From: an uncultured Candidatus Saccharibacteria bacterium
Lineage (GTDB): Bacteria; Patescibacteriota; Minisyncoccia; Phycocordibacterales; UBA918
Direction of reading: 5' to 3'
Length of the DNA: 57,637 bases
Assembly (NCBI GenBank): GCA_964469295.1
Contig: CAYXYJ010000007.1
Coordinates: 14,465-72,101, forward strand
Below, piece after piece: positions 20,677-43,482 of this stretch. A model generated the notes under the pieces. It saw only the letters and a program-made list of their open reading frames with translations, was not told where the DNA came from and did no database searches. Every line of letters begins with the position of its first letter. The first letter of the stretch is position 1. The position numbers were made by a program, and so were the translations under genes.

Positions 20677-20788
20677 GCCGGCCGCAGCGATGTTTTCTTT
20701 TTATCTAAAATGAAAACCGCGAGGCGGGGTCGCAGGTACTTAGATTTTTATAAACGAAGTGAAATAAAAAGCTTAGTAACCTGTGACC
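20677..20788 (+). repeat. Structured dispersed element, subfamily B (tRNA-Lys trailer)
   Basis: Homologous to the reverse complement of 1369-1482; loop AAACGAAGTGAA at 20752-20763. Confidence 0.8.
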
Positions 20789-20809
20789 ACTAAATATCGT
20801 AAAGGACTT

Positions 20810-20930
20810 GGTCACTCTCGTGGCTTAATTATTTCACTTTGTTCATAATTGAGCTCACTCGTGCGGCCTCGACCGTTTCGGTCCTAAAGGGGACCCCGAA
20901 ACAGTCTTTCAAGTCCTGCCCCGGGCTACA
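20810..20930 (-). repeat. Structured dispersed element, subfamily A (tRNA-Leu(TAA) trailer)
   Basis: Colinear with 29150-29270; loop at 20833-20844; anti-tRNA segment at 20908-20926. Confidence 0.85.
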
Positions 20931-20976
20931 AAACAATAGCTTCACCATGCATTCGCATAGTGAAGCTTTGTTGTTG

Positions 20977-28936: not shown

Positions 28937-29149
28937 GGTACCTAGTATAGCAGAATATAGTGGAGATAACGGGCGGCCCTACGGGCCGCTCGTATCAATA
29001 TAAGAAAACCGTCTGACCAATAAAAGTTGGCTCGTTCGTACTTCACTGTTCGAATCCCTCTAGTCAGTGACATTTAGTCACGTACTCCCGGCGCACGCAA
29101 TAAAAATCGCCTAGGCAAATGTCTGAGTAATTTTTTATATTTGAGATTC

Positions 29150-29270
29150 GGTCACTCTCGCGGTTAAATTAGTTCACTTCGTTCCTAATTTAACTCGCTC
29201 GTGCGACCTCACCAGTCTCGGCCCTAAAGGGGACCCCGAGACTGGTTTTCGAATCCCTCCGGCGCTACAA
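29150..29270 (-). repeat. Structured dispersed element, subfamily A (original tRNA-Tyr trailer)
   Basis: Colinear with 20810-20930; loop at 29173-29184; anti-tRNA-Tyr segment at 29248-29265. Confidence 0.85.
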
Positions 29271-29413
29271 ACAGCAACGACCCAAATGCGAATGCATTTG
29301 GGTCGGCTGATCTGTGCGCCGAAATGGAAGCGGTTCGACAAATGTGTGTAGTGTAAATAAGCCTGAAATCGTGAAAATCTTGTGAATCTACCGCAAAATA
29401 GTAGGATGTCTAT

Positions 29414-29857
29414 ATGTCTGAATATAGACTCTCGCAAGAAATAGTGGCTTTATCTGAATCAGATAAGTGGGACGAAGCTCGACTTGAGTGGGAGCTTTTT
29501 CGAATGTTTGATCAAGATGATCTTGATACTTGCTTGTGTGGTCATTATCCCATAAAAGAAATATGTGTCCTGAGAAACAAAAAGAACGATAACCAGGCCA
29601 TCGTGGGTAACTGCTGTGTTCAGAAGTTTATGGGTATTTCTTCAGACAAATTGTTTGCTGCCCTTAAAAGGGTGAAAAAGGACATTGGCAAACCATTTAA
29701 CGCTGATGTTATAGAGTTTTCGTTTGAGCGTGGATATATTAGTGATTGGGAAAAGGGTTTTTATCTTGATACCTGGCGAAAGAGGGACTTGAGTGAGAAA
29801 CAGACAAAAGAAAGAGTTAAAATCAATAAGAAGATTCTGCTTAAACTATCAAAGTAA
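29414..29857 (+). CDS. Hypothetical Cys-rich (putative Zn-binding) protein
   Basis: CLCGH...C...VGNCC; ends 4 nt before the OLD nuclease start. Confidence 0.8.
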   Translation: MSEYRLSQEIVALSESDKWDEARLEWELFRMFDQDDLDTCLCGHYPIKEICVLRNKKNDNQAIVGNCCVQKFMGISSDKLFAALKRVKKDIGKPFNADVIEFSFERGYISDWEKGFYLDTWRKRDLSEKQTKERVKINKKILLKLSK

Positions 29858-29861
29858 ATTT

Positions 29862-31961
29862 ATGTTTTTATCAGTCGTAAAATTATGGAATTTCAGACAG
29901 TTTGGTTCAGTAGGATCTGAAAAAAACAGAAAACCTGACTTGCATACAACATTTGGTCCAGGGCTTAACTTGTTTGTGGGAGAGAATGATTCAGGTAAGA
30001 CGACTGTTGTTGACGCGATAAATTACATCGTTATTCCGCAGAGCTACGAAAACATGCGAATCAGGCATGATGATTTTTTTGGTGATGAAGATTGGCTAAG
30101 AATTGAATGTGTCTTTACTGGATTCACTTCAAATCAGGCTAAAAACTTCATCGAGTACTTAACAATTGATGATAAAAAAGTTTCAGAAATTGCAGCTGAA
30201 GAATTAACTGAGGATGAGCTAATAGAGAAACAGATTGCAAATCTAGAGATGACACTATTTTTGGAAGCTGAAAAAAATAGTGGAGATAAGCCTTTGTGGC
30301 ATAGGGTCAAAGTAAAAGTTGGAGATGAGGTGGTCGACTTAAGTGGTGATGTTCGATTTCAGTTTCTCAGATCAATGTATCTCAAGCCTTTAAGAGATGC
30401 AGAGAGCGAACTCACTGCTAAGCCAAGGTCAAGATTGTCACAGATTCTTCTTAAACATGATTCTTTTGAAGAGGCAAAGGGAGAAAAACACCCTCTCACC
30501 AAGGTATTTTCTGTGGCGAATACTGACATCAGAGGCTTCTTCGAAGGCGAATTTGCAGACCCTGAATCGGTACTGGATATTTTGAGTAGATTATTTATCT
30601 TGTCATCGAAAAAGGTTGAGCAAGGTCTGAATGCTGCAGATGAGGCAGAGTTAAGTTCTTTGCTTGATGAATACCATGATATTAAAACCAATAAAAATGT
30701 CTCTGGTAAAAGAGTAAGTGAACAAATTGGAGAGCACCTAAACAGGTTTCTTTCAAAGAAAAAGAGTAAACAGGCAAAGTTTGATATTTCTGATCAGCAA
30801 TTGTCACAGGTTTTGCAAAAACTTAATCTGGCTCTTGATGAGAAGCGCTCTGGCTTAGGTGCATTAAATATTTTGTTTATGAGTGCTGAACTGCTTCTTT
30901 TGGCAAGAGAGAAGTCAGCAAGTTTACAGTTGGGCATTATTGAGGAGGCTGAGGCACATCTTCATACACAAGCACAGATGAGAGTTCTTGATTACCTACA
31001 ATCGTTAGCTGACAAGAGTGCAGATTCTATGCAGCTATTCGTTACAACACACAGCACTCATATTGCTTCAAAGGTTAAGCTCAAAAACTTAATCTTGTTT
31101 AGAAATGGTAAGGCTTTCAGTATGGCGCCCAACCACACGAAACTTGAACCTCAAGATTACTCATTTCTGGAAAGATTCCTTGACGCAACAAAAGCAAATT
31201 TGTTTTTTGCTGAGGGAGTTTTAATTGTTGAGGGAGATGCTGAGAATATTTTGCTTCCCAGTCTGGCAAAGTTGATTGGCAGAGATCTTGTTTCTTACGG
31301 AGTTTCAGTTGTAAATGTGGGACATTCAGGACTCACACGATTTTCTGATATTTTCATTCGTAAAGAAGGTGAAAGTGAGCTTGATGTGCCTGTCGCAAAT
31401 ATTAAGGATCTTGATGTAAATTACAAAGATTATCTTGTAGAAGGAAAGTTAACGCTTCCTGAAAATATTGCAGAACTGGAGTTATCAAATTGGGAGAAAA
31501 AGGTAGAAGGAGAAGATCAGTGTGTGAAAAATTTTATTTCACCTCACAAAACTCTTGAATACGACTTGGCTCTAGATCAAGAGTTGAGAACTTTGTTTGC
31601 TAGGGCTGTATTTAGGATGATTCATTCTAGGCGCAAACAAGGTGAAGGGATTTTTATACAGGATGAAGCTTCGTTAAAAGCTGCAGATGAAGAGGCGGAT
31701 AATTTCATAAAAGAATCAGTGGAGGCCGGTAAAACTGACCAGCAAACAGCTTACGATTTATATAGGAAATGTAAGAAACACAAGACTCTAACAGCTCAAT
31801 TTTTTGCTCAGATATTAGAGGAATTCACACCTTCTGAACACCTCGATCCTAAGGGGCAGTTAATGTGTCGTGCAGTACAGGCTTCATTGGTCGCTAAGTT
31901 AAAACGTGGGAATGCTGGTTATTTGTTGAATGCTATTGAATATGTGACTGAACCTTTATAA
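29862..31961 (+). CDS. gajA: OLD-family ABC-ATPase/TOPRIM nuclease (Gabija GajA-like)
   Basis: GENDSGKT Walker A, IIEEAEAHLH Walker B, VTTHS, TOPRIM IVEGDAE and DLD. Confidence 0.85.
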   Translation: MFLSVVKLWNFRQFGSVGSEKNRKPDLHTTFGPGLNLFVGENDSGKTTVVDAINYIVIPQSYENMRIRHDDFFGDEDWLRIECVFTGFTSNQAKNFIEYLTIDDKKVSEIAAEELTEDELIEKQIANLEMTLFLEAEKNSGDKPLWHRVKVKVGDEVVDLSGDVRFQFLRSMYLKPLRDAESELTAKPRSRLSQILLKHDSFEEAKGEKHPLTKVFSVANTDIRGFFEGEFADPESVLDILSRLFILSSKKVEQGLNAADEAELSSLLDEYHDIKTNKNVSGKRVSEQIGEHLNRFLSKKKSKQAKFDISDQQLSQVLQKLNLALDEKRSGLGALNILFMSAELLLLAREKSASLQLGIIEEAEAHLHTQAQMRVLDYLQSLADKSADSMQLFVTTHSTHIASKVKLKNLILFRNGKAFSMAPNHTKLEPQDYSFLERFLDATKANLFFAEGVLIVEGDAENILLPSLAKLIGRDLVSYGVSVVNVGHSGLTRFSDIFIRKEGESELDVPVANIKDLDVNYKDYLVEGKLTLPENIAELELSNWEKKVEGEDQCVKNFISPHKTLEYDLALDQELRTLFARAVFRMIHSRRKQGEGIFIQDEASLKAADEEADNFIKESVEAGKTDQQTAYDLYRKCKKHKTLTAQFFAQILEEFTPSEHLDPKGQLMCRAVQASLVAKLKRGNAGYLLNAIEYVTEPL

Positions 31962-31963
31962 AT

Positions 31964-33892
31964 ATGACCAGCGATGAGATTGATATTTTAGAAATTGAAA
32001 AGATTTTACTCCCAGCAGGAGCCAGCTTTAATGATGAGAGACGAAAATTTATATTTGAAAACTCAAAAAATGTTGACCTCATTGCTTGTGCTGGAAGTGG
32101 AAAGACAACAGCTTTGCTTGCAAAATTACTATTGCTTGAACGACAACATAAAGCTAAAGATGGCATATGTGTTCTAACTCATACTAATGTCGCAATAAAC
32201 GAAATCAAAGATAAGATTTCATCTGACTCCATTCTTCTTCAATTCCCTAGCAGTTTCAGTACCATACAACAGTTTGTTGATCGTTTTCTAACTATCCCTG
32301 CATATAGGCATTTAACAGGGCACAACCTTAAGCAAATTGATACTGAAGCAGCCAATAAACGCTTTGTGAACAACCTTTATGCTCTACCTAACTCTACTGA
32401 GAAAACTGCGCTGTTTGGTTATCAAAGTTTTGGAAGAGAATGGGAAGATCGTAAAAAGGTTCTTGAAAGAGGTGTTGAATATATTATTGAAGTGGGGTCC
32501 GGTCATTTTAAATTTACAGGCAATCACAATAACAGACCAATACCTCTGAAAAACCCTAATAGTAATTGCTATAAAGCGACCAAAAAAGCAAAAGATGCAG
32601 TTTTTCTTGAAGGGTACATTACATATGATGAGGCTTATTCGCTCGCTTTTTGGTATTTAGATAAGTTTCCGTTTATTGAAAAGTGTCTTTCGGAAAGATT
32701 CCGTTTTGTGTTTGTTGATGAGATGCAAGATTCGTCAAAAATCCAAATTGATCTGCTTAAAAGAATTTTCAGACATCCTGATAATGTGTTTCAAAGAATT
32801 GGCGATCCAAATCAAACTATCTATGACACAAACAATGATAACTTGTGCGAATGGGAGCCATCAGAAAATCTGCATAACCTGAAAGGGAGTTTGCGACTTT
32901 CTACATCTACCGTTAAGGCTATTTCAGGCATTAGAAATGATTGTACAGAGGAAATAGAGGGGAATGAAAATTTACCTACAATAAATCCTCACATCATTAC
33001 TTTTAAAGAAGGTGAAGAAAATAAAGCTATTCATGAGTACAAGAATTTGCTGATAAAGCATTGGTCCGAATTAGATTACAAGGAAGGTGATCAAATAAAG
33101 ATTGTGGGTTGGACAGGGAAAGACAATGGTGATTTATGTTTGCCTAGGTATAACCCATTATTTTCTAATTCTACTTCAAAGAAATATCTTCCAAATATTG
33201 AGAGCTACAAATCTCAGTTTGAATCACATATCAGAAAGCGGGGGTCATTAAAGGCCGCCAGGTCCTTGATTCTACAAACTGCCACTCAGCTACTATTTGA
33301 GTTGGGAGTAAAAAATGAAAATAAATATTACACCCAAGTAGATGTTGAAGAGAAAATTGAGTCTCACGTGGATTTGAATCGAAGATTATTGAATCTGTCT
33401 GTAAATCTGGCTTATTCAGAAAATGCTTGGGATAGAGTTAATGAATTCATTTCAAACAATGTTTTACCACTGTTTATTCAAGATGAAAAAAGTATTGATC
33501 ATGAAAAGCTTAATGAATTCCTAAACGGTGAATCAGTCGTTTCAATTACATCTGAAGAACCTAATGATGCAGAGGATTTCTTGGTGGTAGATGATTTTGA
33601 CACAAAGATTCCGATTACGACTTCGACCATTCACTCAGTCAAAGGGGAGACTCATAAATCTACCTTGTATGTAGAGACTAAGTACCATAAATATGATTTG
33701 GAACGATTATTAAAGGGTCTCTGTGGAGGTTTGGAAAAAGCAGATAACTTAGACGGAAAGAGAAAGATGATGGGCTATGTTGCTATGTCCAGAGCGTCTC
33801 ACCTACTTTGTTTAGCGGTCCGTGATGTTGTTATTGACCAAGATTTAGAAAAGCAATTACAAGGTATTGGTTGGGAAGTGGTAAGGGCTTAG
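31964..33892 (+). CDS. gajB: UvrD-like helicase (Gabija GajB-like)
   Basis: ACAGSGKT, LTHTN, VDEMQD, IGDPNQTIY, TIHSVKGE, YVAMSRA; 2 nt after the OLD nuclease. Confidence 0.85.
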   Translation: MTSDEIDILEIEKILLPAGASFNDERRKFIFENSKNVDLIACAGSGKTTALLAKLLLLERQHKAKDGICVLTHTNVAINEIKDKISSDSILLQFPSSFSTIQQFVDRFLTIPAYRHLTGHNLKQIDTEAANKRFVNNLYALPNSTEKTALFGYQSFGREWEDRKKVLERGVEYIIEVGSGHFKFTGNHNNRPIPLKNPNSNCYKATKKAKDAVFLEGYITYDEAYSLAFWYLDKFPFIEKCLSERFRFVFVDEMQDSSKIQIDLLKRIFRHPDNVFQRIGDPNQTIYDTNNDNLCEWEPSENLHNLKGSLRLSTSTVKAISGIRNDCTEEIEGNENLPTINPHIITFKEGEENKAIHEYKNLLIKHWSELDYKEGDQIKIVGWTGKDNGDLCLPRYNPLFSNSTSKKYLPNIESYKSQFESHIRKRGSLKAARSLILQTATQLLFELGVKNENKYYTQVDVEEKIESHVDLNRRLLNLSVNLAYSENAWDRVNEFISNNVLPLFIQDEKSIDHEKLNEFLNGESVVSITSEEPNDAEDFLVVDDFDTKIPITTSTIHSVKGETHKSTLYVETKYHKYDLERLLKGLCGGLEKADNLDGKRKMMGYVAMSRASHLLCLAVRDVVIDQDLEKQLQGIGWEVVRA

Positions 33893-33913
33893 ATTTGATA
33901 TATAAATTGTTGC

Positions 33914-34324
33914 ATGAGTAATTTACTTGATTTAATAACTAAAAACTACTGTACGCTTCTTAACGTGCCAACTTCAAAATCTGCCGAAGGGCAGGCTTGG
34001 CAAATAATTGCTAATTTTTGGTCCCAGCTCTGGCCCTACTTGTTAGGATTCCTGGTCGTGGTGGTGTTGGCCGAGTTGCTGACTCGCCATAAAAATGAAT
34101 ATAACTCTGCAAATGGATTTACGCCTCAATTTAATAGATTTGTGGGGAGTGGCACATACATGGGGCTTCAGATTGGTCTATATTTTCTGGTCCATTTAAT
34201 ATTTGGAAACATTGCTTATTGTTTCCCTTGGCCGTATCTAGCTCACATAGTGGTGTTTTCGCTGACATTTTACATTCTGCATTGGATAGGATTTTGGCCT
34301 AAAAAATATAAGAGAAAGTACTAA
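33914..34324 (+). CDS. Hypothetical membrane protein (about 3 TM)
   Basis: Hydrophobic segments; 21 nt after the helicase. Confidence 0.7.
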   Translation: MSNLLDLITKNYCTLLNVPTSKSAEGQAWQIIANFWSQLWPYLLGFLVVVVLAELLTRHKNEYNSANGFTPQFNRFVGSGTYMGLQIGLYFLVHLIFGNIAYCFPWPYLAHIVVFSLTFYILHWIGFWPKKYKRKY

Positions 34325-34397
34325 ATGGTTTTGACCAAAGCATAGGCTTGTGACTACAATAAGTTTGAATCTTTGATTCTTATCAAAAATCAAACTT

Positions 34398-34697
34398 ATG
34401 GCACGAGGAGGCAAAAGACCAGGCGCCGGTCGTAAAAAAGGATTTTCAGCAATCACCGCGGAAGAGAGTCGCAAAGTTATTGCTGATCTTGTAGCTAAAG
34501 ATATTGCTCCAATTACTAAGGCCTTAATTAAAAAAGCAAAACAGGGAGATGTAAAAGCAGCTAGCTTGCTGTTTGATCGTGCGTTTGGAAAGCTTGAGAC
34601 AAAAGCTCAAAAACCATCTTTTTTCTACAATGTAGCTGATGTTCGAGAGCGATATGGATCCGGGGCAATGGCGGAGGAGCGAAAGAAGTTCAGTTAG
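34398..34697 (+). CDS. Small phage-type protein, terminase-small-subunit-like
   Basis: MARGGKRPGAGRKKG N-terminus; KAKQGDVKAASLLFDRAFGK helix. Confidence 0.55.
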   Translation: MARGGKRPGAGRKKGFSAITAEESRKVIADLVAKDIAPITKALIKKAKQGDVKAASLLFDRAFGKLETKAQKPSFFYNVADVRERYGSGAMAEERKKFS

Positions 34698-34709
34698 TCA
34701 TTTTTAAGA

Positions 34710-35243
34710 TTAGAATCCAGTCTTGAGTCCGAGTATATCTTCTCTTAACTTTTTAATGAACATAGCTTCCTTTTCGCGTAGTTCGACTACCAAAAGAGCG
34801 TTCTCTAAATTAAGTTGCTCATCAGAACTATCGCTAAGGTGCTGAGCGAAAGCTGATCCGATGACTGGTTCATTATCGTCATTGAAAATATTGTCGTACT
34901 CTCTGTATCTATCGTTCAGTAAGTCACTAATACTAGATCTTTGCTCAAAGTTATAGCCATTTCTCTTATATGCTGAAAAATACTCCTCATGTACTAAATC
35001 TAGAAACAGATGATTAGTGAGTTTGTCTGTATAAATTGGATTAATTCTTAAGTACCAAAGAAGATATGCCATGGACTCAAATTTAAAGACTTCTTTAAAT
35101 TTGCCACTCCATGGATTTACCTCACTTTCATTTTCGAGTACAACATTGTGAGCAATTAAGGCAAGTTCACTTGATACAACTAATGCTACTTTTCTCAACG
35201 CTCTTTTAAAGCGCTTGAATTTTAAAAATTTAATTATTGACAT
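34710..35243 (-). CDS. Hypothetical protein
   Basis: 177-aa ORF preceded by a structured leader. Confidence 0.7.
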   Translation of the reverse strand: MSIIKFLKFKRFKRALRKVALVVSSELALIAHNVVLENESEVNPWSGKFKEVFKFESMAYLLWYLRINPIYTDKLTNHLFLDLVHEEYFSAYKRNGYNFEQRSSISDLLNDRYREYDNIFNDDNEPVIGSAFAQHLSDSSDEQLNLENALLVVELREKEAMFIKKLREDILGLKTGF

Positions 35244-35249
35244 ACAAAA

Positions 35250-35378
35250 AGCCCGCTACCAGGTAGGACCGAAGTCCATATCTAGAGTTTCCCCCAAATA
35301 GCACAAACAAGTGACCCCTGATAACGGGTTCTTTACTTGTTTGTGACTAACTTATTCGCACCATACCGCCAGCGGGCT
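35250..35378 (-). promoter_or_regulatory. Structured leader RNA / attenuator
   Basis: AGCCCGCT/AGCGGGCT closing helix plus U5 just before the ATG; 11-bp inner helix; cUUCGg hairpin. Confidence 0.65.
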
Positions 35379-35472
35379 GTCGGGTTAGGTGACTATATTG
35401 TGTTTGTAATATTACACTTAGTTTCTTGGTCCGCAAGCGTTACTTTTCACGGAAAAGAGCTAATATAAAATC

Positions 35473-36093
35473 ATGAAGGAGCTGGAGATTGAAGATACAT
35501 GTGGTGTATGTGAGAAAATTCAGAAAATTGCTGAGGGAAGTTCTTCTGGCCAGGTGTTAACTTACCTACTTGAGACAAGCTCCAACACTCGTTTAAAGAA
35601 AGAAAGAGCATGTCTTGAAGAACTCGCAAATGAGTACCATGCTATTACTTTTGTTGGTAGGGCTGAGACGCATCTAAATAAAATAAAATATAAATTCCGA
35701 ATAAACGAGAAGCGATTTCAAAAGCATTTAAACGACGAGTGTAATCCTGAACATTTCCCTAGAAAAATTGGTGACAGAGTTCAGATTATCGCAAGCATGA
35801 GGTGGGGTTTGTTTGTAAAAGGAAGGCCTGAGTACCGATGTAGATTGTCTCCGCGTAGAATGAAATTCATTTTTAACTTAATGTATGGATCTGATGATAT
35901 TCCAACGCGAAATGGTAAGAAAATGTCTACTTCAAACAAAACTAAAGCTGTGAATATTATCAACGACCAATTCATGAGTAGTCTGGGTTTTGATAAGAAG
36001 CTTGTTGAAGGGGATGGGGGTCGTGGTTATTACTTGAATGAGCTAGTTTATATTGTTACTCCAGACCAACAATATTCCACGGAAATGGAATAA
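35473..36093 (+). CDS. Hypothetical protein with possible C-terminal winged-helix DNA-binding domain
   Basis: C-terminal ...AVNIINDQF...LVEGDGGRGYYLN resembles an OmpR-type wing. Confidence 0.6.
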   Translation: MKELEIEDTCGVCEKIQKIAEGSSSGQVLTYLLETSSNTRLKKERACLEELANEYHAITFVGRAETHLNKIKYKFRINEKRFQKHLNDECNPEHFPRKIGDRVQIIASMRWGLFVKGRPEYRCRLSPRRMKFIFNLMYGSDDIPTRNGKKMSTSNKTKAVNIINDQFMSSLGFDKKLVEGDGGRGYYLNELVYIVTPDQQYSTEME

Positions 36094-36116
36094 AATGATA
36101 GTCGAATGATTTATGT

Positions 36117-36216
36117 CAGCTCTGTACTCTCGTAAGTACGGAGCTGGTTTTCGTTAAGACTCGTCACCAGTAAGGACTCTCCAAACCAGCTCCTTGGAGG
36201 GTCCTTACTGGTTTTT
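36117..36216 (+). promoter_or_regulatory. Two-hairpin RNA switch upstream of the rep/integrase gene run
   Basis: 12-bp and 19-bp stems each followed by T-runs; 11-nt cross-complementarity between 36140-36150 and 36183-36193. Confidence 0.65.
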
Positions 36217-36219
36217 ACT

Positions 36220-36378
36220 ATGCAACTTTCTGAACAACACGTTGAAGCGTTCATTGAACTATATAAAAAACATTATGGTGTTGTTCTTGATCGTGAAGTT
36301 GCAGTCGAGAAAGGTATTCAGCTTTGTAGATTAGTAGAACTTGTTGATTTTAGTCAAAGTGAATATGAAGAAGAATAA
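36220..36378 (+). CDS. Unannotated 52-aa protein (MQLSEQHVEAFIELYKKHYGVVLDREVAVEKGIQLCRLVELV...)
   Basis: Open frame ATG 36220 to TAA 36378, overlapping the next ORF; amphipathic helical pattern; below the ORF-track size cut-off. Confidence 0.7.
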   Translation: MQLSEQHVEAFIELYKKHYGVVLDREVAVEKGIQLCRLVELVDFSQSEYEEE

Positions 36379-36679
36379 AAAATTACTTGAAAGTGTTGTG
36401 GAAGTTTTTACCTTTAAAGAAGCGGTGGTTTTGCAATACACAGGTCACTCTCTTAGATCAATTGATAAAAATAATGACATTGATTGTCCGTATATCTATC
36501 GTTTCTTTCTTAGGAGCGACACATTAGCACTGCTTGATGATTTTGGAGAAGGTACGATTATGGTCGAACCGGGTTGTTTTATTGATGCTTTGGGAAACTT
36601 ATTGGAGCAAAAAGAACGCTTTGTGGGAGGGGGTAAGAATAAAAAAGATGACAATAAAGGGCTGGATCAAATTATTTAG
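36365..36679 (+). CDS. Hypothetical protein
   Basis: Overlapping ORF in the island operon. Confidence 0.55.
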   Translation: MKKNKKLLESVVEVFTFKEAVVLQYTGHSLRSIDKNNDIDCPYIYRFFLRSDTLALLDDFGEGTIMVEPGCFIDALGNLLEQKERFVGGGKNKKDDNKGLDQII

Positions 36680-37139
36680 GAGAGAATTTGAATGGTTCAA
36701 GGATCTTTCAAATCCAGAAATAGTGTATTTACTCGCTGCACGAGTCGTTGCAGAGTGGGATAATAAAAAGGAGCAATTTGGGACTTTTGATGCAAGAATC
36801 AAAGAAATGCAGAAGATTCTCGGATGGTCTGATGGTACTATAAGCAGAGTTGGCAAATTGCTTTTGAGCAAGGGTTATTTTCATAAAACTGATGACCATA
36901 GGCGCTGGAGGATAACAAATGCAGAATTATTTTTCTCTAAGGGTGGCAGTAGTAAAAAAGCTGAAAAAATTATTTTAGATACCGAAACTAATCTTCAAAC
37001 ACACGAACTTAATCTTCAGATATCTGAATATTTTCCAGATAAGATTAAGCAAGGAATCAAGGATTTAAAGGATAAAATGAGTGTGTCTGATGGCTCTAAG
37101 AAGAAGAATCAAGAAGATAAAGAAAATACAAATAAGTAA
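36648..37139 (+). CDS. Phage-type replication initiator / HTH protein
   Basis: N-terminal GWIKLFRR resembles the GWIKLHR motif of phage replisome organisers; HTH-like LGWSDGTISRVGKLL..KGY. Confidence 0.6.
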   Translation: MTIKGWIKLFRREFEWFKDLSNPEIVYLLAARVVAEWDNKKEQFGTFDARIKEMQKILGWSDGTISRVGKLLLSKGYFHKTDDHRRWRITNAELFFSKGGSSKKAEKIILDTETNLQTHELNLQISEYFPDKIKQGIKDLKDKMSVSDGSKKKNQEDKENTNK

Positions 37140-37142
37140 AAC

Positions 37143-38981
37143 ATGGACAGATATAAAGCAAGTAAATATTTCCTATACCTAAGACGGTCCCAAGACGCGG
37201 AAGATCGGCAGATGGCATCACTTGAAGACCAGGAGTCTGAGATGGTTGCTGTTGCTGAAAAACTAGGCCTAGAAATTGTTGACGTTATTGAGGAGTCTCA
37301 ATCAGCTAAAAAACCAGGAAGACCAAAATTTAATGACATGATTGCGAGAATCCATGCTGGAGAGGCAGATGGAATTGTTTGCTGGAAAATCAATCGCCTG
37401 GCTCGTAATCCAGTTGATGGTGGTCAGATCTCATGGCTTTTGCAGCAAGGGGTAATTAAACATATTCAAACGTACTCACGTGACTATCAGCCGTCAGACA
37501 ACGTGATTATGATGGCGGTTGAGCTTGGTATGGCGAACCAGTTTGTGAATGACTTGAGTGTCGATGTGAAGCGAGGAATGAGACAGAAGGCTGAACGTGG
37601 TTGGTATCCGCAGAGGTCTCTTCCTCCTGGCTACAAGCACAATAAGGGGTATGAAAAAGGTGAGGTTGAGATTGTGAGCACGAAGGAGCTCTCAATAGTG
37701 AAGAAGCTTTTCGAGGATATGCTGACCGGCAACTATTCTGCTTCGGATATTCAGAGAAAGTGTGGCACGTATGGAATAACCGGAAGGAAGGGGCAGCCAT
37801 TACCGCTTCAAACAGTCTTTAACATTCTCACCAATGAATTTTATTGTGGGTATTACTATTGGAAAGATTCTAATGGAGAAGAGGTAAGACACAAGGGCAA
37901 GCATAAGGCTATTTTGAGCGAGGATGAGTTTAATCGGGTCCAGAGGTTGTTGGGTAAGAAAGGGAGGCCAACACGCGTTAATAAGCTAGATTTTGCGTTT
38001 AGAGGCCCATTGAATTGTGGGGAGTGCGGGTGTGCTGTTACAGCTGAAGAAAAAGTGCGTTGTGTCTGTACTGGCTGCCGCTACAAATTCTCAGCCAAGA
38101 CTAGGACTGATTGTCCTAAGTGTGGTCTAGATCTATCAGAAATGAATGATCCAAAAATATACCGAAATGTCTACTACCACTGTACGAAAAAGAGAAAGGA
38201 CTATAAGTGCACTCAAAGTGTTATTGATGAAACGCAACTCAAGAAACAGGTGTATGGAGAATTAGGCAAAGTTGAGATTGATGAGGATTTCTACAACTGG
38301 GCAGTAGCGGCCCTTAAGCATACTCACGGTGATGAGATGCAGACTCAAGGTGACATCTTGAAGGGTCTTAATGATCGTTCTGTGGCTATTCAAGCACGTA
38401 TTGATAAGTTTGTACTGATGCGTGCAGATGGAGAGATTTCAAGTGATCAGCTTGCTCGTATGACAGCTGATGAAGAGAAAAGCTTAAAAGATATTGAAAA
38501 AGAGCAGAAGCGTCTTCATGCTCGTATGACAGAGTGGTCCGCTACTGCCGACAAGTATCTAACTTTTGCTGATCGGGTCCGCAGAAAATTCAATAAAGCT
38601 TCAAATGAAGAGAAAAGAGAGATGTTGACCATGTTAGGTTCGACACTCGAAATAACTGACAAAAAATTCAGAGTTATAGTCGCGAATGAGCTTTTAGGCT
38701 TCAAAAACGTCTATGTGAAATTGGGTAAGAAATTAGGAAGGTTCGACACTCAAAAAGCCCTTGATATACAAGGACTTTCTGAACAAAAACGCTTAGTTTT
38801 TGATGAACTGTGCGCCGGGAGGGATTCGAACCTTCGTAGGCTGATGCCAGCAGATTTACAGTCTGCCCTCGTTGACCGCTTGAGTACCGACGCAATTATG
38901 TGCATGAGGTGGTCAAACCTCATCTGTGTCGTACAACTTACCACAGATTGCCACTATTTTCAAAGGGGTCTTGTGTGGTAG
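37143..38981 (+). CDS. Large serine recombinase (integrase)
   Basis: YLRRSQ catalytic Ser, SAKKPGRPKF, INRLARN, recombinase domain, Zn-ribbon (CGECGC...YYHC), coiled coil. Confidence 0.96.
   Translation: MDRYKASKYFLYLRRSQDAEDRQMASLEDQESEMVAVAEKLGLEIVDVIEESQSAKKPGRPKFNDMIARIHAGEADGIVCWKINRLARNPVDGGQISWLLQQGVIKHIQTYSRDYQPSDNVIMMAVELGMANQFVNDLSVDVKRGMRQKAERGWYPQRSLPPGYKHNKGYEKGEVEIVSTKELSIVKKLFEDMLTGNYSASDIQRKCGTYGITGRKGQPLPLQTVFNILTNEFYCGYYYWKDSNGEEVRHKGKHKAILSEDEFNRVQRLLGKKGRPTRVNKLDFAFRGPLNCGECGCAVTAEEKVRCVCTGCRYKFSAKTRTDCPKCGLDLSEMNDPKIYRNVYYHCTKKRKDYKCTQSVIDETQLKKQVYGELGKVEIDEDFYNWAVAALKHTHGDEMQTQGDILKGLNDRSVAIQARIDKFVLMRADGEISSDQLARMTADEEKSLKDIEKEQKRLHARMTEWSATADKYLTFADRVRRKFNKASNEEKREMLTMLGSTLEITDKKFRVIVANELLGFKNVYVKLGKKLGRFDTQKALDIQGLSEQKRLVFDELCAGRDSNLRRLMPADLQSALVDRLSTDAIMCMRWSNLICVVQLTTDCHYFQRGLVW
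38811..38893 (-). tRNA. tRNA-Tyr(GTA)
   Basis: Cloverleaf, loop CTGTAAA, long variable arm; lies antisense inside the recombinase ORF tail. Confidence 0.95.
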
Positions 38982-39008: not shown

Positions 39009-40073
39009 ATGGTTTCGTACCTGTTTAGATTACTGGCCTTCACGTTTGTTTTTGTCAATATTTTATTTGTTCCGGCGGCATTGGCGGAGGAGCCGATGTA
39101 TCTTGGTGAAATTAATTTTAATAGCGGGTTGGTACCCTGTGGTGGGCAAGGGCAAGAACCGTGCCAAGCCTGTCATGTGATTGATCTAACCAACGGCGTC
39201 ATTGAGTGGTTGGTGATGGTGCTCGGTACCTTGGCCGCCATTATCATTGTCTATGCCGGATTCAAATTAGTAGTATCGGGCGGGAATCATCATGCTCGCG
39301 AAGAAGCCAAAAGCATGATTACAAATATGATTATTGGGTATGTGATTGTGCTGGCGGGGTGGTTGTTAATTGACACGGCGATGAAAGCGCTCTTGGATGA
39401 GGGTGAATTTGGTATTTGGAATCAAGTGCAGTGTGTAACGCAGCCAGACGTATTATGGACCGATCCCGCTACTTTTCTTAGTGGTACCAATGGTTGGAAT
39501 TCTACCGGAGTCACTGGCGTTGTGGGAGTAGAGTGTGGGTACGTGAGAGGTCCGGCCGGTATGCCAACGACCGAACGCGATTGTTCGGTTGCCATCGCGC
39601 AGTGTGAGGCGGTACCTGGAATAGCGACCGTTTCACCTGATGGTGCATCCGTTACTTGTGCACCGGCGCCAGTGCAAGGAAGTAGTGGCGGAGGAGTGCA
39701 GTGTAATCCTGGTAACACGGCGTGTAGTGTCAGTGCCTTGCAAGGGTATGGACTAAATGCGCAACAAGCGAATATTATGTCTTGTATTGCAATGACGGAA
39801 AGTTCTGGGATTCCGAGCATTCCGCCTTACAATCTTGCTCATCCCGAATCAAATTCGTCAGCATGTGGTACATTTCAGATTGTACGGACAACGTGGAATA
39901 GCTACGCTAGTCAAATATCGACTGATTGTCGTGACCATGCTTCCAGTTGTCAAAATGCTCGCTGTAACGCTCAACTAATGGTAGCGTTGGTGCGTGCCAG
40001 AGGATATAATGATTGGACCTGTCCAGGTTGTAATAGACGAGCGGCGGCCTGTGTTTCCCGGTATGGTGGCTAA
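39009..40073 (+). CDS. CPR pilin-like domain fused to a lytic-transglycosylase/lysozyme-like domain
   Basis: N-terminal IVYAGFKLVVSGGN...EEAKSMITNMIIG; C-terminal IAMTESSG, SACGTFQI..TTW, CN. Confidence 0.75.
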   Translation: MVSYLFRLLAFTFVFVNILFVPAALAEEPMYLGEINFNSGLVPCGGQGQEPCQACHVIDLTNGVIEWLVMVLGTLAAIIIVYAGFKLVVSGGNHHAREEAKSMITNMIIGYVIVLAGWLLIDTAMKALLDEGEFGIWNQVQCVTQPDVLWTDPATFLSGTNGWNSTGVTGVVGVECGYVRGPAGMPTTERDCSVAIAQCEAVPGIATVSPDGASVTCAPAPVQGSSGGGVQCNPGNTACSVSALQGYGLNAQQANIMSCIAMTESSGIPSIPPYNLAHPESNSSACGTFQIVRTTWNSYASQISTDCRDHASSCQNARCNAQLMVALVRARGYNDWTCPGCNRRAAACVSRYGG

Positions 40074-40085
40074 TAATTATCTGGC

Positions 40086-40574
40086 ATGAAAAAAATCATC
40101 ATTATTATTTTTGTCCTATTTATTCCTATTGGGGTTATGGTGGGGTATAAAAAATTTTCTAACCAATCTATTGTGGACGACACCAGTCCGGTGCAATATA
40201 CAGACCTTACCATTTCATTGACTCCAGCCCAATCAGATAAAGTGATTGTTGGCAATTTTCTGCAGCGACCCGATGTAACGGAAGATCGGCACAACAGCAT
40301 GTATTATTTTTTAGGAAATACTTTCGACAGTACTACCGCACCATATGTCGTTACCTTTGATGCTGTTGGTCGATATTTTACTGTTGCACTTTTACAATCG
40401 CCATTTGGTGAATCTCGTCGTGCTGCAGAGCAATATTTACTCGGTGTATTAGACATCAGTGAAGCAGAAATGTGCACGCTTTCCTATGCCGTAAGTGTCC
40501 CGGGGTACGTTTCAGAATCTGCTTCTGGTGAGGATTATCGATTTAGTTTCTGTTCAGACGCAAAGCAATTGTAA
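40086..40574 (+). CDS. Membrane-anchored extracellular hypothetical protein
   Basis: N-terminal TM; Cys pair; between two pilin-hydrolase fusions. Confidence 0.75.
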   Translation: MKKIIIIIFVLFIPIGVMVGYKKFSNQSIVDDTSPVQYTDLTISLTPAQSDKVIVGNFLQRPDVTEDRHNSMYYFLGNTFDSTTAPYVVTFDAVGRYFTVALLQSPFGESRRAAEQYLLGVLDISEAEMCTLSYAVSVPGYVSESASGEDYRFSFCSDAKQL

Positions 40575-40579
40575 TCAAT

Positions 40580-41506
40580 ATGAAATTATTATTTTGGACA
40601 GTGGGAGTGTTCGGACTACTATTTTTTATGAGTCCGGATGTGTCTCTCGCCCAAGGATTGGCGGATTTGGCACAATGTTCTGGAACCGATTGTTCGGCAT
40701 GTAATATTGTTTATTTGGCTAATGGTGGCATTAAATGGCTTGTGGGCTTTTTGTGTGTGTTGTGCGCGGCGCTCATTGCGTGGGCGGGATTTGGATTAGT
40801 GATGTCTGGTGGAAATCGACATGCGCTTGATGAGGCGAAAAATACTTTCACTAATGCCATCATTGGTCTGATCATTCTTTTGTCCGCTTGGTTGATTGTA
40901 GATACCATCATGCGGGCGCTGGTAGGTAACGACGAAAATCCAGGTTCAGTGCAAACTGTTAACGGCTGGCTTTTCTGGAGTGATGTGCAATGTCAGGTGC
41001 AAGAGGAACCAGAATATACACCGCACTCTAATGATGATATTAGTATGGTGCCAATGGTGCCTGGCCCAGCGGGTATGCCAGTTGCTGGTACCGGTGCAAA
41101 TTGTCCTGTTCCTGATGCTGGGGGCATGGTATCGATTCCCGGACAAGAAAGGTTTGTCGCGACACCTGATACGGTATCTCGTTTTGTACAAATGCGTACG
41201 GCAGCTGCGGCTGATGGTATTACATTAACTGTTACCAGTGCGTATCGTTCGGAAGCAGAACAAGTACAGATTTGGACCAGCCGAGGATGTCATAATAATC
41301 CTTCTCTATGTAGTGGAAGAGCAGCTATGCCTTGTAGCTACGGTGGAAACGGCTCCAATCATAACTCTGGTGTAGCACTTGATATTAGTGTTGGACAATC
41401 AGGCAGTGCTACATTTAATTGGTTAAAGAGAAATGGCGGAAGATATGGATTTTATAATAACCTAGATGCTCGAGATCCATTTCATTGGTCACCATCAGGA
41501 CGGTGA
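40580..41506 (+). CDS. CPR pilin-like domain fused to an M15B (VanY-like) D-Ala-D-Ala peptidase
   Basis: IAWAGFGLVMSGGN...DEAKNTFTNAIIG; SAYRS..EQ, SNHNSGVALD, PFHW. Confidence 0.85.
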   Translation: MKLLFWTVGVFGLLFFMSPDVSLAQGLADLAQCSGTDCSACNIVYLANGGIKWLVGFLCVLCAALIAWAGFGLVMSGGNRHALDEAKNTFTNAIIGLIILLSAWLIVDTIMRALVGNDENPGSVQTVNGWLFWSDVQCQVQEEPEYTPHSNDDISMVPMVPGPAGMPVAGTGANCPVPDAGGMVSIPGQERFVATPDTVSRFVQMRTAAAADGITLTVTSAYRSEAEQVQIWTSRGCHNNPSLCSGRAAMPCSYGGNGSNHNSGVALDISVGQSGSATFNWLKRNGGRYGFYNNLDARDPFHWSPSGR

Positions 41507-43244: not shown

Positions 43245-43421
43245 TTGTGCCTCGGGAGGGGGTCGAACATTACATGTTCAGTATAGGTTGTCACCCGTTC
43301 GTTTCCTGTCAGTCACAAACGGGTAGACAACCTTTTCGACCCACGCCACGCTTTTTATTAGAAGCTGCTCCTCCCTCACCACTCCTCACTTTGTTCGTTG
43401 TGCCTCGGGAGGGGGTCGAAC
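43245..43421. repeat. 24-bp direct repeat of the tRNA-Leu(CAA) 3' end enclosing a 129-bp structured spacer
   Basis: TTGTGCCTCGGGAGGGGGTCGAAC at 43245-43268 and 43398-43421. Confidence 0.92.
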
Positions 43422-43482
43422 CCTCACACCTTGCGATACACGATTTTGAGTCGTGCGCGTATACCAATTCCGCCACCGAGGC
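43401..43482 (-). tRNA. tRNA-Leu(CAA)
   Basis: Cloverleaf, loop CTCAAAA, long variable arm. Confidence 0.95.

What the first reader, a model, noticed from the sequence alone, without database searches (positions are those of the whole stretch)
29312..38817. Phage-satellite-like defence island in a CPR genome
The ~9.5 kb AT-rich island carries an integrase, a GWIKL-type replication protein, small regulatory ORFs, a terminase-small-subunit-like gene and defence cargo, but no capsid, portal, tail or conjugation genes. That inventory resembles PICI/P4-type satellites, which are established to carry anti-phage hotspots. The satellite assignment is inference.
Basis: partly seen in the sequence, partly recalled or inferred. 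Interest (0 to 1): 0.65.

Follow-up and report, generated by a model that had tools for sequence, protein, structure and literature searches.

The report
Mobile anti-phage island in a CPR bacterium
A 9.5 kb mobile island inserted at the end of a tRNA-Tyr gene in a tiny CPR (Patescibacteria) bacterium carries a Gabija anti-phage system, a copy of a phage DNA-packaging gene and a conserved structured RNA, and belongs to a family that swaps defence systems, so it is probably a small parasite of phages, though that is not proven.

Summary
A 10-bp repeat, CTGTGCGCCG (29312-29321 and 38808-38817), is the 3' end of tRNA-Tyr. GC is about 0.37 against 0.46 in the flanks.

- **Mobility.** Four sludge or wastewater metagenomes hold both flanks at 98% identity or more, with no island.
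- **Cargo.** The cargo is Gabija (GajA and GajB). About ten related islands in other CPR contigs keep the backbone but carry Shedu, DISARM, another Gabija or unknown large proteins in the same slot.
- **Terminase-like gene.** The 99-aa protein belongs to a DUF5681-type family. In phage contigs this family sits directly upstream of the large terminase (profile match 99.8%; 7 of 10 neighbours are TerL). Its fold matches no solved structure.
- **"GWIKL replication protein".** This is only a winged-helix DNA-binding protein, and several relatives lack it. No replication gene was found.

Two new points emerged.
- The orphan Rfam motif LOOT RNA is a conserved backbone part.
- The serine integrase gene spans attP, so excision restores a conserved 11-residue C-terminus.

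Satellite status remains inference. I found no helper phage, no circular junction and no virome copy. This is a new variant of a known kind.

The parts
29312..29321 (.). attL core: copy of the last bases of tRNA-Tyr (CTGTGCGCCG)
   Evidence: Direct repeat with 38808-38817. Similarity to L003 and L001 begins here. The X2 contig diverges at 29314.
29321..29356 (+). 11 codons plus stop (EMEAVRQMCVV*) that complete the integrase reading frame in the excised circular form
   Evidence: Joining 38817 to 29322 gives a 569-aa integrase. The same tail is encoded at the left ends of L003 (EMEAVRQLCVV*) and L001 (ELKAVRQLCLV*). The differences are synonymous or conservative, and the stop falls at the same position.
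29414..29857 (+). 147-aa Cys-rich ORF, function unknown; part of the left arm
   Evidence: ORF. No family hit. Contigs in runs X1-X3 conserve it, then diverge at 29790, where the cargo begins.
29793..31961 (+). GajA (OLD-family ATPase + TOPRIM nuclease) of Gabija; likely true start at the ATG at 29862
   Evidence: PADLOC GajA 7.1e-172, aligned over residues 24-720. Pfam AAA_15 1.2e-25 and OLD-like_TOPRIM 3.3e-13.
31964..33892 (+). GajB (UvrD-like helicase) of Gabija
   Evidence: PADLOC GajB 4.1e-149. Pfam UvrD-helicase 3e-25.
33914..34324 (+). 136-aa hydrophobic (membrane) protein, the last gene of the variable cargo slot
   Evidence: ORF, no family hit. Conservation with other islands starts only at about 34328.
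34331..34360 (+). Promoter-like site (TTGACC-18-TACAAT) at the start of the conserved backbone block upstream of the TerS-like gene
   Evidence: Consensus scan, 10 of 12 matches. It lies in the block conserved in L001, L002, L003, L006 and L009. A consensus match only; function not shown.
34398..34697 (+). 99-aa DUF5681-type protein, homologue of phage proteins in the small-terminase position
   Evidence: - **Family scans:** Pfam DUF5681 5.6e-4, below the cut-off. phrog_15261 5.8e-6. phrog_24579 (TerS) 8e-4.
- **Distribution:** present in every related island.
- **Phage link:** hhalign against the phage family gives 99.8%, E 3.7e-29. In phages it lies directly upstream of TerL.
- **Selection:** dN/dS 0.07-0.19.
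- **Structure:** all-helical model, pLDDT 76, with no fold match.
34710..35243 (-). 177-aa ORF downstream of LOOT on the minus strand; unknown function, a variable position in the family
   Evidence: ORF. No family hit. Relatives have unrelated ORFs of 59-163 aa at this position.
35254..35401 (-). LOOT RNA (Rfam RF03000; Rfam match 35265-35391) with a conserved TATAGT just 5' of it
   Evidence: - Rfam score 48.3 bits against a gathering score of 46.4.
- Relatives score up to 71.7 bits.
- My own covariance model finds it in all related island loci that hold this region except L094/L095.
- 17 of 34 pairs show compensatory changes.
- It is 95.6% identical to L006, while synonymous sites of the neighbouring gene are saturated.
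35473..36093 (+). 206-aa backbone protein of unknown function; first rightward gene of the divergent control region
   Evidence: Homologues at about 25% identity sit in the same position in L001, L002 and L093. There is no family, PDB or database relative.
36115..36212 (+). Terminator-like hairpin (36115-36148) and a 19-nt inverted repeat (36166-36184 / 36194-36212) between the 206-aa gene and the integrase-proximal operon
   Evidence: Pattern matches only.
36220..36679 (+). Two small ORFs (52 aa, 36220-36378; 112 aa, 36341-36679), unknown; candidate regulator or directionality factor
   Evidence: The 52-aa gene is about 80% identical at DNA level in L001 and L002. No family hits. The role is inference.
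36648..37139 (+). 163-aa winged-helix DNA-binding protein (the 'GWIKL' ORF)
   Evidence: - AF2 model pLDDT 78, with a wHTH core above 90.
- Foldseek finds MarR, SarA, IclR and TubR with probability 0.98-1.0 and E about 4e-3.
- The PDB profile search finds MecI/BlaI weakly.
- Weak MarR, TrmB and DnaD_N hits appear in relatives.
- It is found only in the window, L001, L002 and L091.
37143..38981 (+). Large serine recombinase. In the integrated state the ORF reads through attR into antisense tRNA-Tyr (612 aa).
   Evidence: Pfam Resolvase 7.4e-19 and Recombinase 5e-14; Zn_ribbon_recom weak. phrog_95 integrase 2.5e-69. dN/dS against L003 is 0.05.
38808..38893 (-). attR core (38808-38817) and the intact tRNA-Tyr(gta) gene (38810-38893)
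   Evidence: ARAGORN and Rfam tRNA, 49.4 bits. Repeat.

Best explanation
The region is a 9.5 kb site-specific integrative island of a Patescibacteria (CPR) bacterium.

**Integration.** A large serine recombinase inserted it exactly between the 3' end of tRNA-Tyr and the host's native downstream module. The 10-bp core keeps the tRNA intact.

**Layout.**
- A short left arm.
- A variable cargo slot, about 29.8-34.3 kb, holding a complete Gabija system. GajA is a nuclease-ATPase and GajB a UvrD-type helicase. The 136-aa membrane protein is also in this slot.
- A conserved backbone: a gene homologous to phage small-terminase-position proteins, a divergent control region with the LOOT RNA, a few small or orphan proteins including a winged-helix DNA binder, and the integrase.

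**Integrase switch.** attP lies inside the integrase gene. The integrated copy makes an integrase with a tRNA-antisense tail. The excised circle restores a conserved 11-residue C-terminus.

**Proposed life cycle (inferred, not shown).** The island is a minimal phage satellite.
- On infection by a helper phage it excises.
- Its TerS homologue directs the helper's large terminase to package island DNA, so it spreads in phage particles.
- Meanwhile the cargo protects the host against other phages.

**What is shown.** Boundaries, presence/absence polymorphism, cargo exchange among relatives, homology of the 99-aa protein to the phage family, purifying selection, conservation of LOOT, and the split integrase frame.
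For: **Boundaries and mobility**
- att core and breakpoints.
- Island-free populations of the same organism occur in four metagenomes.
- Relatives L097 and L105 have ClpB and tRNA-Tyr adjacent, with no island.

**Cargo slot**
- Gabija here.
- SduA 1e-145 plus a UvrD-like helicase in L001, DrmA 8e-228 (DISARM) in L091, and GajA 9e-241 with MazG and HNH in L009.
- Unknown proteins of 1265 aa and of 465+451 aa in L003 and L007.
- Contigs diverge at 29790 and conservation resumes at about 34328.

**TerS link**
- 80 IMG/VR loci encode relatives.
- The next ORF is TerL in 7 of 10 tested, followed by a 550-720 aa ORF.
- Profile-profile match 99.8%, E 3.7e-29 over residues 1-74.
- The TerS-like gene is the only backbone protein present in all islands, apart from an integrase.

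**Not a wreck**
- dN/dS is 0.07-0.19 for the TerS-like gene and 0.05 for the integrase.

**Split integrase**
-.

**LOOT**
-.

**No structural or conjugation genes**
- None in the window or, by the precomputed Pfam tables, in relatives.
Against: - No helper phage is identified.
- No attP junction, LOOT copy, integrase relative or wHTH relative was found in IMG/VR.
- The one metagenome scan for attP used a pattern that did not cover the window's own junction.
- Contigs in the available runs show no joints.
- No replication, primase, capsid-size or interference gene is recognisable. Six ORFs are orphans.
- The 99-aa protein is shorter than its phage relatives (100-137 aa) and aligns only over about 74 residues.
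- Its fold matches no solved TerS. BFVD matches are insignificant, E 0.14 or worse.
- Pfam DUF5681 is below its cut-off.
- That the phage family is truly TerS rests on gene position, not on experiment.
- A small basic helical protein could equally be a regulator or a recombination directionality factor.
Confidence: 0.5

Rival explanations
1. It is a mobile integrative defence island, but not a phage satellite. It moves by another route, such as natural transformation, vesicles, generalised transduction or mobilisation. The DUF5681-type protein is a DNA-binding regulator or the recombination directionality factor of the integrase, recruited from a phage.
For: - The only invariant partners are the small protein and an integrase, as expected for an Int/RDF or Int/regulator pair.
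- No replication or capsid-redirecting genes are present.
- No copy occurs in virome collections.
- There is no TerS fold match.
- The minimal member L009 has only two further small ORFs.
Against: - The small protein stays with the backbone even where the serine integrase is replaced by a tyrosine integrase (L093). That argues against a dedicated RDF of the serine enzyme.
- Its phage relatives sit at the TerS position, not next to integrases.
- No relaxase, oriT or T4SS gene is present in any member.
Confidence: 0.3
2. It is a largely sedentary defence hotspot at tRNA-Tyr. The integrase and backbone are domesticated, and the cargo is exchanged by homologous recombination between conserved backbone arms rather than by movement of the whole element.
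For: - Cargo differs between islands that share conserved arms on both sides of the slot.
- L003 sits at the same chromosomal site in a related genome with different cargo.
Against: - Island-free populations of the same organism exist.
- The same left arm occurs with a different host flank.
- Family members sit at tRNA-Glu in other hosts.
- The integrase is under strong purifying selection, and its frame is conserved across attP.
- GC is 9 points below the host's.
Confidence: 0.15
3. It is a decayed prophage fragment that happens to retain an integrase and a small-terminase gene.
For: An integrase and a phage-derived packaging-type gene sit next to a tRNA, with no other phage genes.
Against: - The same compact architecture (5.8 to over 14 kb) recurs in about ten independent loci with intact ORFs.
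- dN/dS is far below 1.
- LOOT and the upstream promoter block are conserved.
- No pseudogenised structural genes are seen.
Confidence: 0.04

Closest known systems
Phage-inducible chromosomal islands (SaPIs and other PICIs) that encode their own small terminase
   Same: - A small integrated island at a fixed att site, with an integrase and a divergent control region.
- A TerS homologue without TerL.
- No virion genes.
- Accessory cargo, including anti-phage systems.
   Different: - It has a serine integrase (tyrosine in one relative) instead of the typical tyrosine integrase.
- No primase/replicase, AlpA/Stl-type regulator, Ppi/Rpp or capsid-morphogenesis genes are detectable.
- The host is a CPR bacterium.
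- The TerS-like protein is a DUF5681-type family.
- It carries a conserved structured RNA (LOOT).
- Induction and packaging are unshown.
P4-like satellites and P2 prophages with defence hotspots (PMC9122126)
   Same: A conserved mobile backbone with one slot in which different anti-phage systems replace one another between relatives.
   Different: No Psu, Delta, Sid, alpha primase or epsilon homologues. Different integrase class, different host phylum and a much smaller backbone.
Minimal satellites such as PICMIs of marine vibrios (recalled from memory, not checked here)
   Same: Very small islands (about 6 kb in the smallest relatives) that appear to lack their own replication module and would depend on a helper for everything but integration.
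   Different: The gene content is unrelated. PICMI markers (AlpA, Fis-site integration) are not seen. The comparison rests on my recollection of that literature.
Integration-dependent switches of mycobacteriophages, where attP lies inside a gene so that integration changes the product's C-terminus (Broussard et al. 2013, from memory)
   Same: attP lies in the 3' end of a gene, so the integrated and excised forms encode proteins with different C-termini. The excised-form tail is conserved.
   Different: Here the gene is a serine integrase itself, not a repressor or tyrosine integrase. No degradation tag is evident, and the functional consequence is unknown.
Gabija defence system (GajA/GajB)
   Same: Adjacent GajA (ATPase + TOPRIM) and GajB (UvrD helicase) with full-length PADLOC matches.
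   Different: Nothing unusual in the system itself. The setting, a mobile island of a CPR bacterium, is the notable point.
LOOT RNA motif (Rfam RF03000; Weinberg et al. 2017, PMC5737381)
   Same: It passes the family's gathering score and keeps the predicted helices through compensatory changes.
   Different: As far as I recall, the motif was known only from environmental sequence, with no organism or function. The main text of the paper does not discuss it. Here it has a defined home: the control region of these islands.

Membership tests
Gabija | GajA: ABC/OLD-type ATPase fused to a TOPRIM nuclease | tested here: met
   PADLOC GajA 7.1e-172 over the whole model. Pfam AAA_15 and OLD-like_TOPRIM above their cut-offs.
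Gabija | GajB: UvrD-like helicase encoded next to GajA | tested here: met
   PADLOC GajB 4.1e-149. The gene starts 3 nt after the GajA stop.
Large serine recombinase (phage-type serine integrase) | N-terminal resolvase catalytic domain, recombinase domain and zinc-ribbon/coiled-coil C-terminal part | tested here: met
   Resolvase 7.4e-19 and Recombinase 5e-14. Zn_ribbon_recom is only 4.7e-3, below its cut-off. phrog_95 integrase 2.5e-69. The N-terminus reads YLRRSQ, the usual catalytic Ser context.
Large serine recombinase (phage-type serine integrase) | Short identical core at attL and attR, with no long repeats | tested here: met
   10-bp core in the window, 8 bp in L003, 10 bp in L001, 7 bp in L009.
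Phage small terminase (TerS) | Sequence membership in a curated TerS family | tested here: inconclusive
   phrog_24579 'terminase small subunit' 8e-4. Best PHROG hit is an unknown family, 5.8e-6. Pfam DUF5681 scores 20.9 bits against a cut-off of 27.5.
Phage small terminase (TerS) | Encoded directly upstream of the large terminase in phage genomes | tested here: met
   This holds for the phage homologues, not the island. The downstream ORF is TerL in 7 of 10 IMG/VR loci. Homology of the two sets is 99.8%, E 3.7e-29.
Phage small terminase (TerS) | TerS fold (N-terminal HTH, oligomerisation core) or DNA/TerL binding | tested here: not met
   The AF2 model (pLDDT 76) has no PDB match. BFVD matches are insignificant, with DUF5681 proteins on top. 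The PDB profile search finds nothing relevant. Binding is not testable here.
PICI (gene set as used for satellite detection: integrase, AlpA/Stl-type regulator, primase-replicase, optional TerS/Ppi/Rpp; recalled from memory) | Primase/replicase module | tested here: not met
   No primase, helicase or Rep hit in Pfam, PHROGs or NCBIfam for any backbone ORF, here or in relatives. The 'GWIKL' ORF is only a wHTH. Orphan ORFs leave room for an unrecognised module.
PICI (gene set as used for satellite detection: integrase, AlpA/Stl-type regulator, primase-replicase, optional TerS/Ppi/Rpp; recalled from memory) | Induction, excision and packaging by a helper phage | not testable with these tools
   No cultured host. 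No junction reads or virome copies were found.
P4-like satellites | Psu, Delta, Sid, alpha (primase), epsilon, AlpA | tested here: not met
   No PHROG or Pfam hit to any of these in the island ORFs.
Integrative conjugative or mobilisable element | Relaxase, and/or a T4SS coupling protein or VirB4, inside the element | tested here: not met
   None in the island or in relatives' precomputed Pfam tables. The T4SS_pilin-domain genes at 39009-41506 lie outside the island and are also present where there is no island.
LOOT RNA (RF03000) | Score at or above Rfam's gathering threshold, with the consensus helices kept | tested here: met
   48.3 bits against 46.4 in the window, and 49.8-71.7 bits in relatives. 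17 of 34 predicted pairs show compensatory changes among 7 island copies.

The most novel reading that the evidence does not exclude
These 'LOOT-TerS islands' are the first phage satellites of CPR/Patescibacteria and a new satellite class.
- Their minimal hijacking kit would be a TerS homologue plus the LOOT RNA, with no replication module.
- Integrase directionality or stability would be toggled by the integration-dependent swap of its C-terminus.
- The single cargo slot would be a reservoir of known and unknown anti-phage systems. The unknowns include the 1265-aa protein of L003 and the 465+451-aa pair of L006/L007.
Probability: 0.3. Interest if true: 0.8.

Novelty: new variant of a known kind. 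Interest (0 to 1): 0.64.

Why it matters
CPR bacteria are a large, mostly uncultured part of bacterial diversity. Their phages, mobile elements and defences are poorly known. My literature searches found no paper describing a phage satellite in CPR/Patescibacteria.

- **A tractable mobile family.** It has exact att sites, so it can be counted and tracked in metagenomes.
- **Movement of defence systems.** Gabija, Shedu and DISARM move between CPR genomes on one backbone.
- **A place to look for new defence genes.** The same slot holds several large proteins of unknown function.
- **A context for LOOT.** This orphan RNA motif now has a genomic setting from which its function can be tested.
- **An unusual integrase.** A serine integrase whose C-terminus depends on the integration state may interest people who use these enzymes as tools.

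Tried and rejected
**Searches that found nothing**
- Exact-sequence look-ups of the integrase and GajB found nothing, probably because the gene calls on record differ.
- The wHTH protein family was not found in GTDB genomes, IMG/VR or JGI metagenome contigs by pattern scans. An exhaustive HMM search gave 60 representatives.
- tblastn of the 99-aa protein against GenBank phages gave no match.
- The 206-aa protein has no database relative except itself, no PDB match and no PHROG match.
- Scanning for an attP junction gave nothing in IMG/VR.
  - My first pattern was faulty. It matched L003- and L001-type junctions but not the window's own.
- A 17-mer of LOOT hit three IMG/VR contigs. They are chance matches, with no LOOT by covariance model and no island proteins.
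- Runs X1-X3 hold only fragments of related islands, and no joints were seen.
- No tandem repeats or iterons lie in the island.

**Readings considered and rejected**
- I suspected that the inverted tRNA-like fragment and hairpin left of the island belonged to the island or to an older element, or was a hidden tRNA or tmRNA.
  - ARAGORN with relaxed settings and Rfam found nothing.
  - The module proved to be a host feature downstream of many tRNAs, including empty tRNA-Tyr sites.
- 'Replication protein' for the GWIKL ORF is rejected.
- The flanking T4SS-pilin genes as part of the element are rejected.


Full report
**1. Is the island there?**

Yes, and at the stated coordinates.
- GC drops from about 0.46-0.48 to 0.36-0.41 between 29 and 37 kb and returns to 0.49 after 39 kb.
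- A tRNA-Tyr(gta) gene lies at 38810-38893 on the minus strand.
- The repeat search found CTGTGCGCCG at 29312-29321 and at 38808-38817. The right-hand copy is the last bases of the tRNA plus two bases.

Four independent comparisons break at that point.
- Locus L003 is a related genome with an island at the same chromosomal site. It starts to resemble the window at 29312, and its own left end begins with CTGTGCGC.
- L001 has TTTGTGCGCCGAACTTAAGGCGGTTAGACAAC at its left end, after a copy of its own tRNA-Tyr end.
- A contig of run X2 carries the island's left arm joined to a different flank and diverges from the window at 29314.
- In four activated-sludge or wastewater metagenomes (X5-X8), contigs cover both flanks at 98% or more, while depth is zero across about 29.5-38.5 kb.

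The island is therefore a strain-variable insertion.

**2. Host**

- The ClpB gene left of the island is 64-68% identical to ClpB of Patescibacteria/CPR MAGs (Paceibacterota, Kaiserbacteria, 'Saccharibacteria', Patescibacteria group). It is 54% or less identical to anything else.
- In several of those relatives ClpB is followed within about 100 bp by tRNA-Tyr, with no island.

**3. Gene content**

- *Left arm.* A 147-aa Cys-rich ORF with no family hit.
- *Cargo.* GajA (PADLOC 7e-172; AAA_15 + OLD TOPRIM) and GajB (4e-149; UvrD helicase) form a complete Gabija system. A 136-aa membrane protein follows.
- *Backbone.*
  - The 99-aa protein, 34398-34697.
  - A 177-aa ORF on the other strand.
  - LOOT RNA.
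  - A 206-aa orphan.
  - Two small ORFs.
  - The 163-aa 'GWIKL' protein.
  - A large serine recombinase with Resolvase and Recombinase domains.
- *What is absent.* No ORF hits a capsid, portal, tail, relaxase or T4SS family.

**4. Relatives**

Look-ups of homologues of the GWIKL and 99-aa proteins gave about ten distinct related loci. They share a common plan: a cargo slot, the 99-aa gene, a short opposite-strand ORF with LOOT upstream of it, a few small genes, and an integrase whose ORF runs into a tRNA. L001 places LOOT on the other side of the 99-aa gene.

| Locus | Cargo | Notes |
|---|---|---|
| Window | Gabija | tRNA-Tyr |
| L001 | UvrD-like helicase + Shedu SduA (1e-145) | tRNA-Tyr |
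| L091 | DISARM (DrmA 8e-228, with methylase, DrmE_C and MZB domains) | integrase cut by contig end |
| L009 | MazG + HNH + another Gabija (GajA 9e-241) | tRNA-Glu |
| L093 | 1039-aa DUF4365/REase-like protein | tyrosine integrase |
| L003 | 1265-aa unknown protein | same site as the window |
| L006/L007 | 465+451-aa unknown pair | contig ends just after LOOT; integrase end not seen |
| L094 | unknown ORFs | tRNA-Glu, no LOOT |

PADLOC values are. tRNA assignments are.
- In the window, contigs of X1 and X2 diverge at 29790, and backbone conservation resumes at about 34328. These two points bound the slot.
- No relative carries a relaxase or a T4SS gene.
- Island sizes run from about 5.8 kb (L094) to over 14 kb (L091).

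**5. The terminase-like gene**

Direct family evidence is weak.
- Pfam DUF5681 is below its cut-off.
- The best PHROG hit is an unknown family.
- A TerS PHROG scores 8e-4.
- The AlphaFold model (pLDDT 76, all-helical) has no PDB match and only insignificant BFVD matches, topped by DUF5681 phage proteins. The PDB profile search found nothing.

Context evidence is strong.
- A scan of IMG/VR with the family alignment returned 80 viral loci.
- In these, the matching ORF of 100-137 aa is followed at once by a 400-530 aa ORF and then a 550-720 aa ORF.
- Seven of ten of the middle ORFs are large terminases above Pfam's cut-offs.
- A profile-profile comparison of the island family with those phage proteins gives 99.8% probability, E 3.7e-29, over residues 1-74.

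The island gene is thus a homologue of phage proteins in the small-terminase position.
- It is the only backbone protein found in every island besides an integrase.
- It has its own conserved promoter-like block.
- It is under purifying selection, dN/dS 0.07-0.19.

That the phage family really acts as TerS, and that the island copy does, is inference.

**6. The 'GWIKL replication protein'**

- An exhaustive profile search found only 60 representatives in 1.8 billion proteins.
- Scans of 30 members gave only weak MarR, TrmB, SarA and DnaD_N hits.
- The model has a confident winged-helix core.
- It matches MarR, SarA, IclR and TubR regulators and, weakly, MecI/BlaI.
- L003, L009, L093 and L094 lack it.

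It is a DNA-binding protein. Nothing shows that it initiates replication, and no iterons were found. No replication module is recognisable in any member.

**7. A split integrase gene**

The integrase ORF crosses attR and continues through the antisense tRNA, giving 612 aa.
- If the island is circularised at the core, the frame continues into the left end for 11 codons and stops, giving 569 aa that end ...DELCAEMEAVRQMCVV.
- The same construction gives ...DELCAEMEAVRQLCVV in L003 and ...QELCAELKAVRQLCLV in L001.
- The nucleotide differences are synonymous or conservative, and the stop is at the same position.

This coding constraint across the junction shows that the circular or pre-integration form is a selected state. 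It also means integration swaps the enzyme's C-terminus. What the swap does is unknown.

**8. LOOT RNA**

- Rfam's LOOT model matches 35265-35391 on the minus strand, just above its gathering score. It matches relatives at up to 71.7 bits.
- A covariance model built from island copies finds LOOT in the window, L001, L003-L010 and L091-L093. It finds none in the 80 viral loci.
- Among seven distinct copies, 17 of 34 predicted pairs keep pairing through changes on both sides.
- The element is 95.6% identical between the window and L006, while synonymous sites of the adjacent gene are saturated.
- A conserved TATAGT lies just 5' of it, and a variable ORF follows it. It is therefore the start of the leftward transcript of the control region, either a leader or a small RNA.
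- A metatranscriptome contig covers part of a near-identical copy at low depth. This is weak evidence of transcription.
- The paper that introduced the motif does not discuss it in its main text.

**9. The left flank**

An inverted copy of the tRNA's T-arm and acceptor end, plus a hairpin, lies just left of the island. The same arrangement is seen at L009 and L094, where it matches tRNA-Glu.
- It is not a hidden tRNA or tmRNA.
- It is a host module found downstream of many tRNA genes in these genomes.
  - It occurs at empty tRNA-Tyr sites in L096, L097, L103 and L105.
  - It also follows the window's own tRNA-Leu(taa).
- The island therefore sits exactly between the tRNA end and that module, which fits the boundary. 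The module itself remains unexplained.

**10. Mechanism and verdict**

*Shown:* site-specific insertion at the tRNA end, presence/absence polymorphism, exchange of defence cargo in one slot, a selected phage-derived packaging-type gene, a selected structured RNA, and an integrase frame that closes only in the circle.

*Inferred:* the island excises on phage infection and uses its TerS homologue to have a helper's terminase package it, like terS-encoding PICIs.

*Against:*
- There is no helper, circle or virome copy. One of these scans was faulty.
- There is no replication or capsid-redirecting gene.
- There is no TerS fold match.

It fails the gene-set definitions of PICI and P4, so I do not file it in those families. 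It works most like a minimal terS-carrying satellite. My literature searches found no paper describing a satellite in CPR bacteria.

I rate it a new variant of a known kind, with interest about 0.64. My probabilities are:

| Reading | Probability |
|---|---|
| Satellite model | 0.5 |
| Non-satellite mobile island | 0.3 |
| Sedentary hotspot | 0.15 |
| Prophage wreck | 0.04 |

Noticed in passing
window 35254-35401 (-); L001 6575-6727; L003 10520-10668; L006 10540-10686; L009 10551-10685; L091 10712-10862; L093 10533-10675: The orphan Rfam motif LOOT RNA is a conserved component of this island family. It always lies on the strand opposite the integrase, preceded by a conserved TATAGT and followed by a variable ORF. 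It is absent from the phage loci that carry TerS-like relatives.
   Followed up: yes
window 29321-29356 with 37143-38817; L003 4845-4880; L001 1426-1461: attP lies inside the 3' end of the serine integrase gene. The island's left end encodes a conserved 11-residue C-terminus, E(M/L)(E/K)AVRQ(M/L)C(V/L)V*, which is joined to the integrase only in the excised form. The integrated form reads into antisense tRNA instead.
   Followed up: yes
window 28990-29311 and about 20780-20975; L096 about 13650-13823; L097 about 12839-13000; L009 4700-4910; L094 9700-9880: Many tRNA genes in these CPR genomes are followed by a dispersed module.
- The module comprises a terminator-like hairpin, a G/T-rich linker (GTTGCTGTTTGTAG type), an antisense copy of the last ~20 nt of that same tRNA, a long hairpin and a GGTCGC(A/G)CGAG-type motif.
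- The conserved parts are shared between different tRNAs and different genomes, while the antisense part tracks the neighbouring tRNA.
- There is no Rfam, tRNA or tmRNA hit, and the function is unknown.
   Followed up: partly
L003 5471-9268 (+); L007 8159-9556 (-) and 6823-8178 (-); L094 10764-11939 (-): The cargo slot of some family members holds large proteins with no Pfam or PADLOC match: 1265 aa in L003, a 465+451-aa pair in L007, and 391 aa in L094. By position they are candidate new anti-phage genes.
   Followed up: partly
L093 12203-13303 and 13484-15112: One island with the same TerS-like gene, LOOT and 206-aa-type gene has a tyrosine integrase (PF00589) where the others have the serine recombinase, followed by a further 543-aa ORF cut by the contig end. 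Integration modules are exchanged on this backbone.
   Followed up: no
L096 about 13405-13440 and 13651-13700, next to tRNA-Tyr 13824-13910: In the closest GTDB relative, direct repeats of the tRNA-Tyr 3' end, followed by a repeated ~45-nt sequence, lie 170 and 420 bp from the tRNA. They look like remnants of earlier integrations at the same site.
   Followed up: no
window about 43250-43270, downstream of tRNA-Leu(caa) 43400-43482: A 19-nt direct copy of the 3' end of tRNA-Leu(caa), GTTCGACCCCCTCCCGAGG, lies about 130 nt downstream of that tRNA. It may be an att scar of another element.
   Followed up: no
L101 18369-19730, next to tRNA-Trp 19817-19888: A related CPR genome has a different serine-integrase gene (33% identical) abutting tRNA-Trp, next to the pilin-type genes. 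No TerS-like gene was detected there. tRNA ends in this neighbourhood are a general landing zone.
   Followed up: no
window 39009-40073 and 40580-41506: Just right of the island, two secreted proteins fuse a T4SS_pilin domain to a lysozyme-like (SLT_3) domain and to a VanY D,D-carboxypeptidase domain. Relatives without the island also carry them, so they are host genes.
   Followed up: partly
window 35242-35351 (run X4): A 185-nt contig from a salt-lake metatranscriptome matches the 3' two-thirds of LOOT with 2 mismatches, while its flanks differ. LOOT-bearing elements thus occur outside wastewater and may be transcribed. Depth is low, and DNA carry-over is not excluded.
   Followed up: partly
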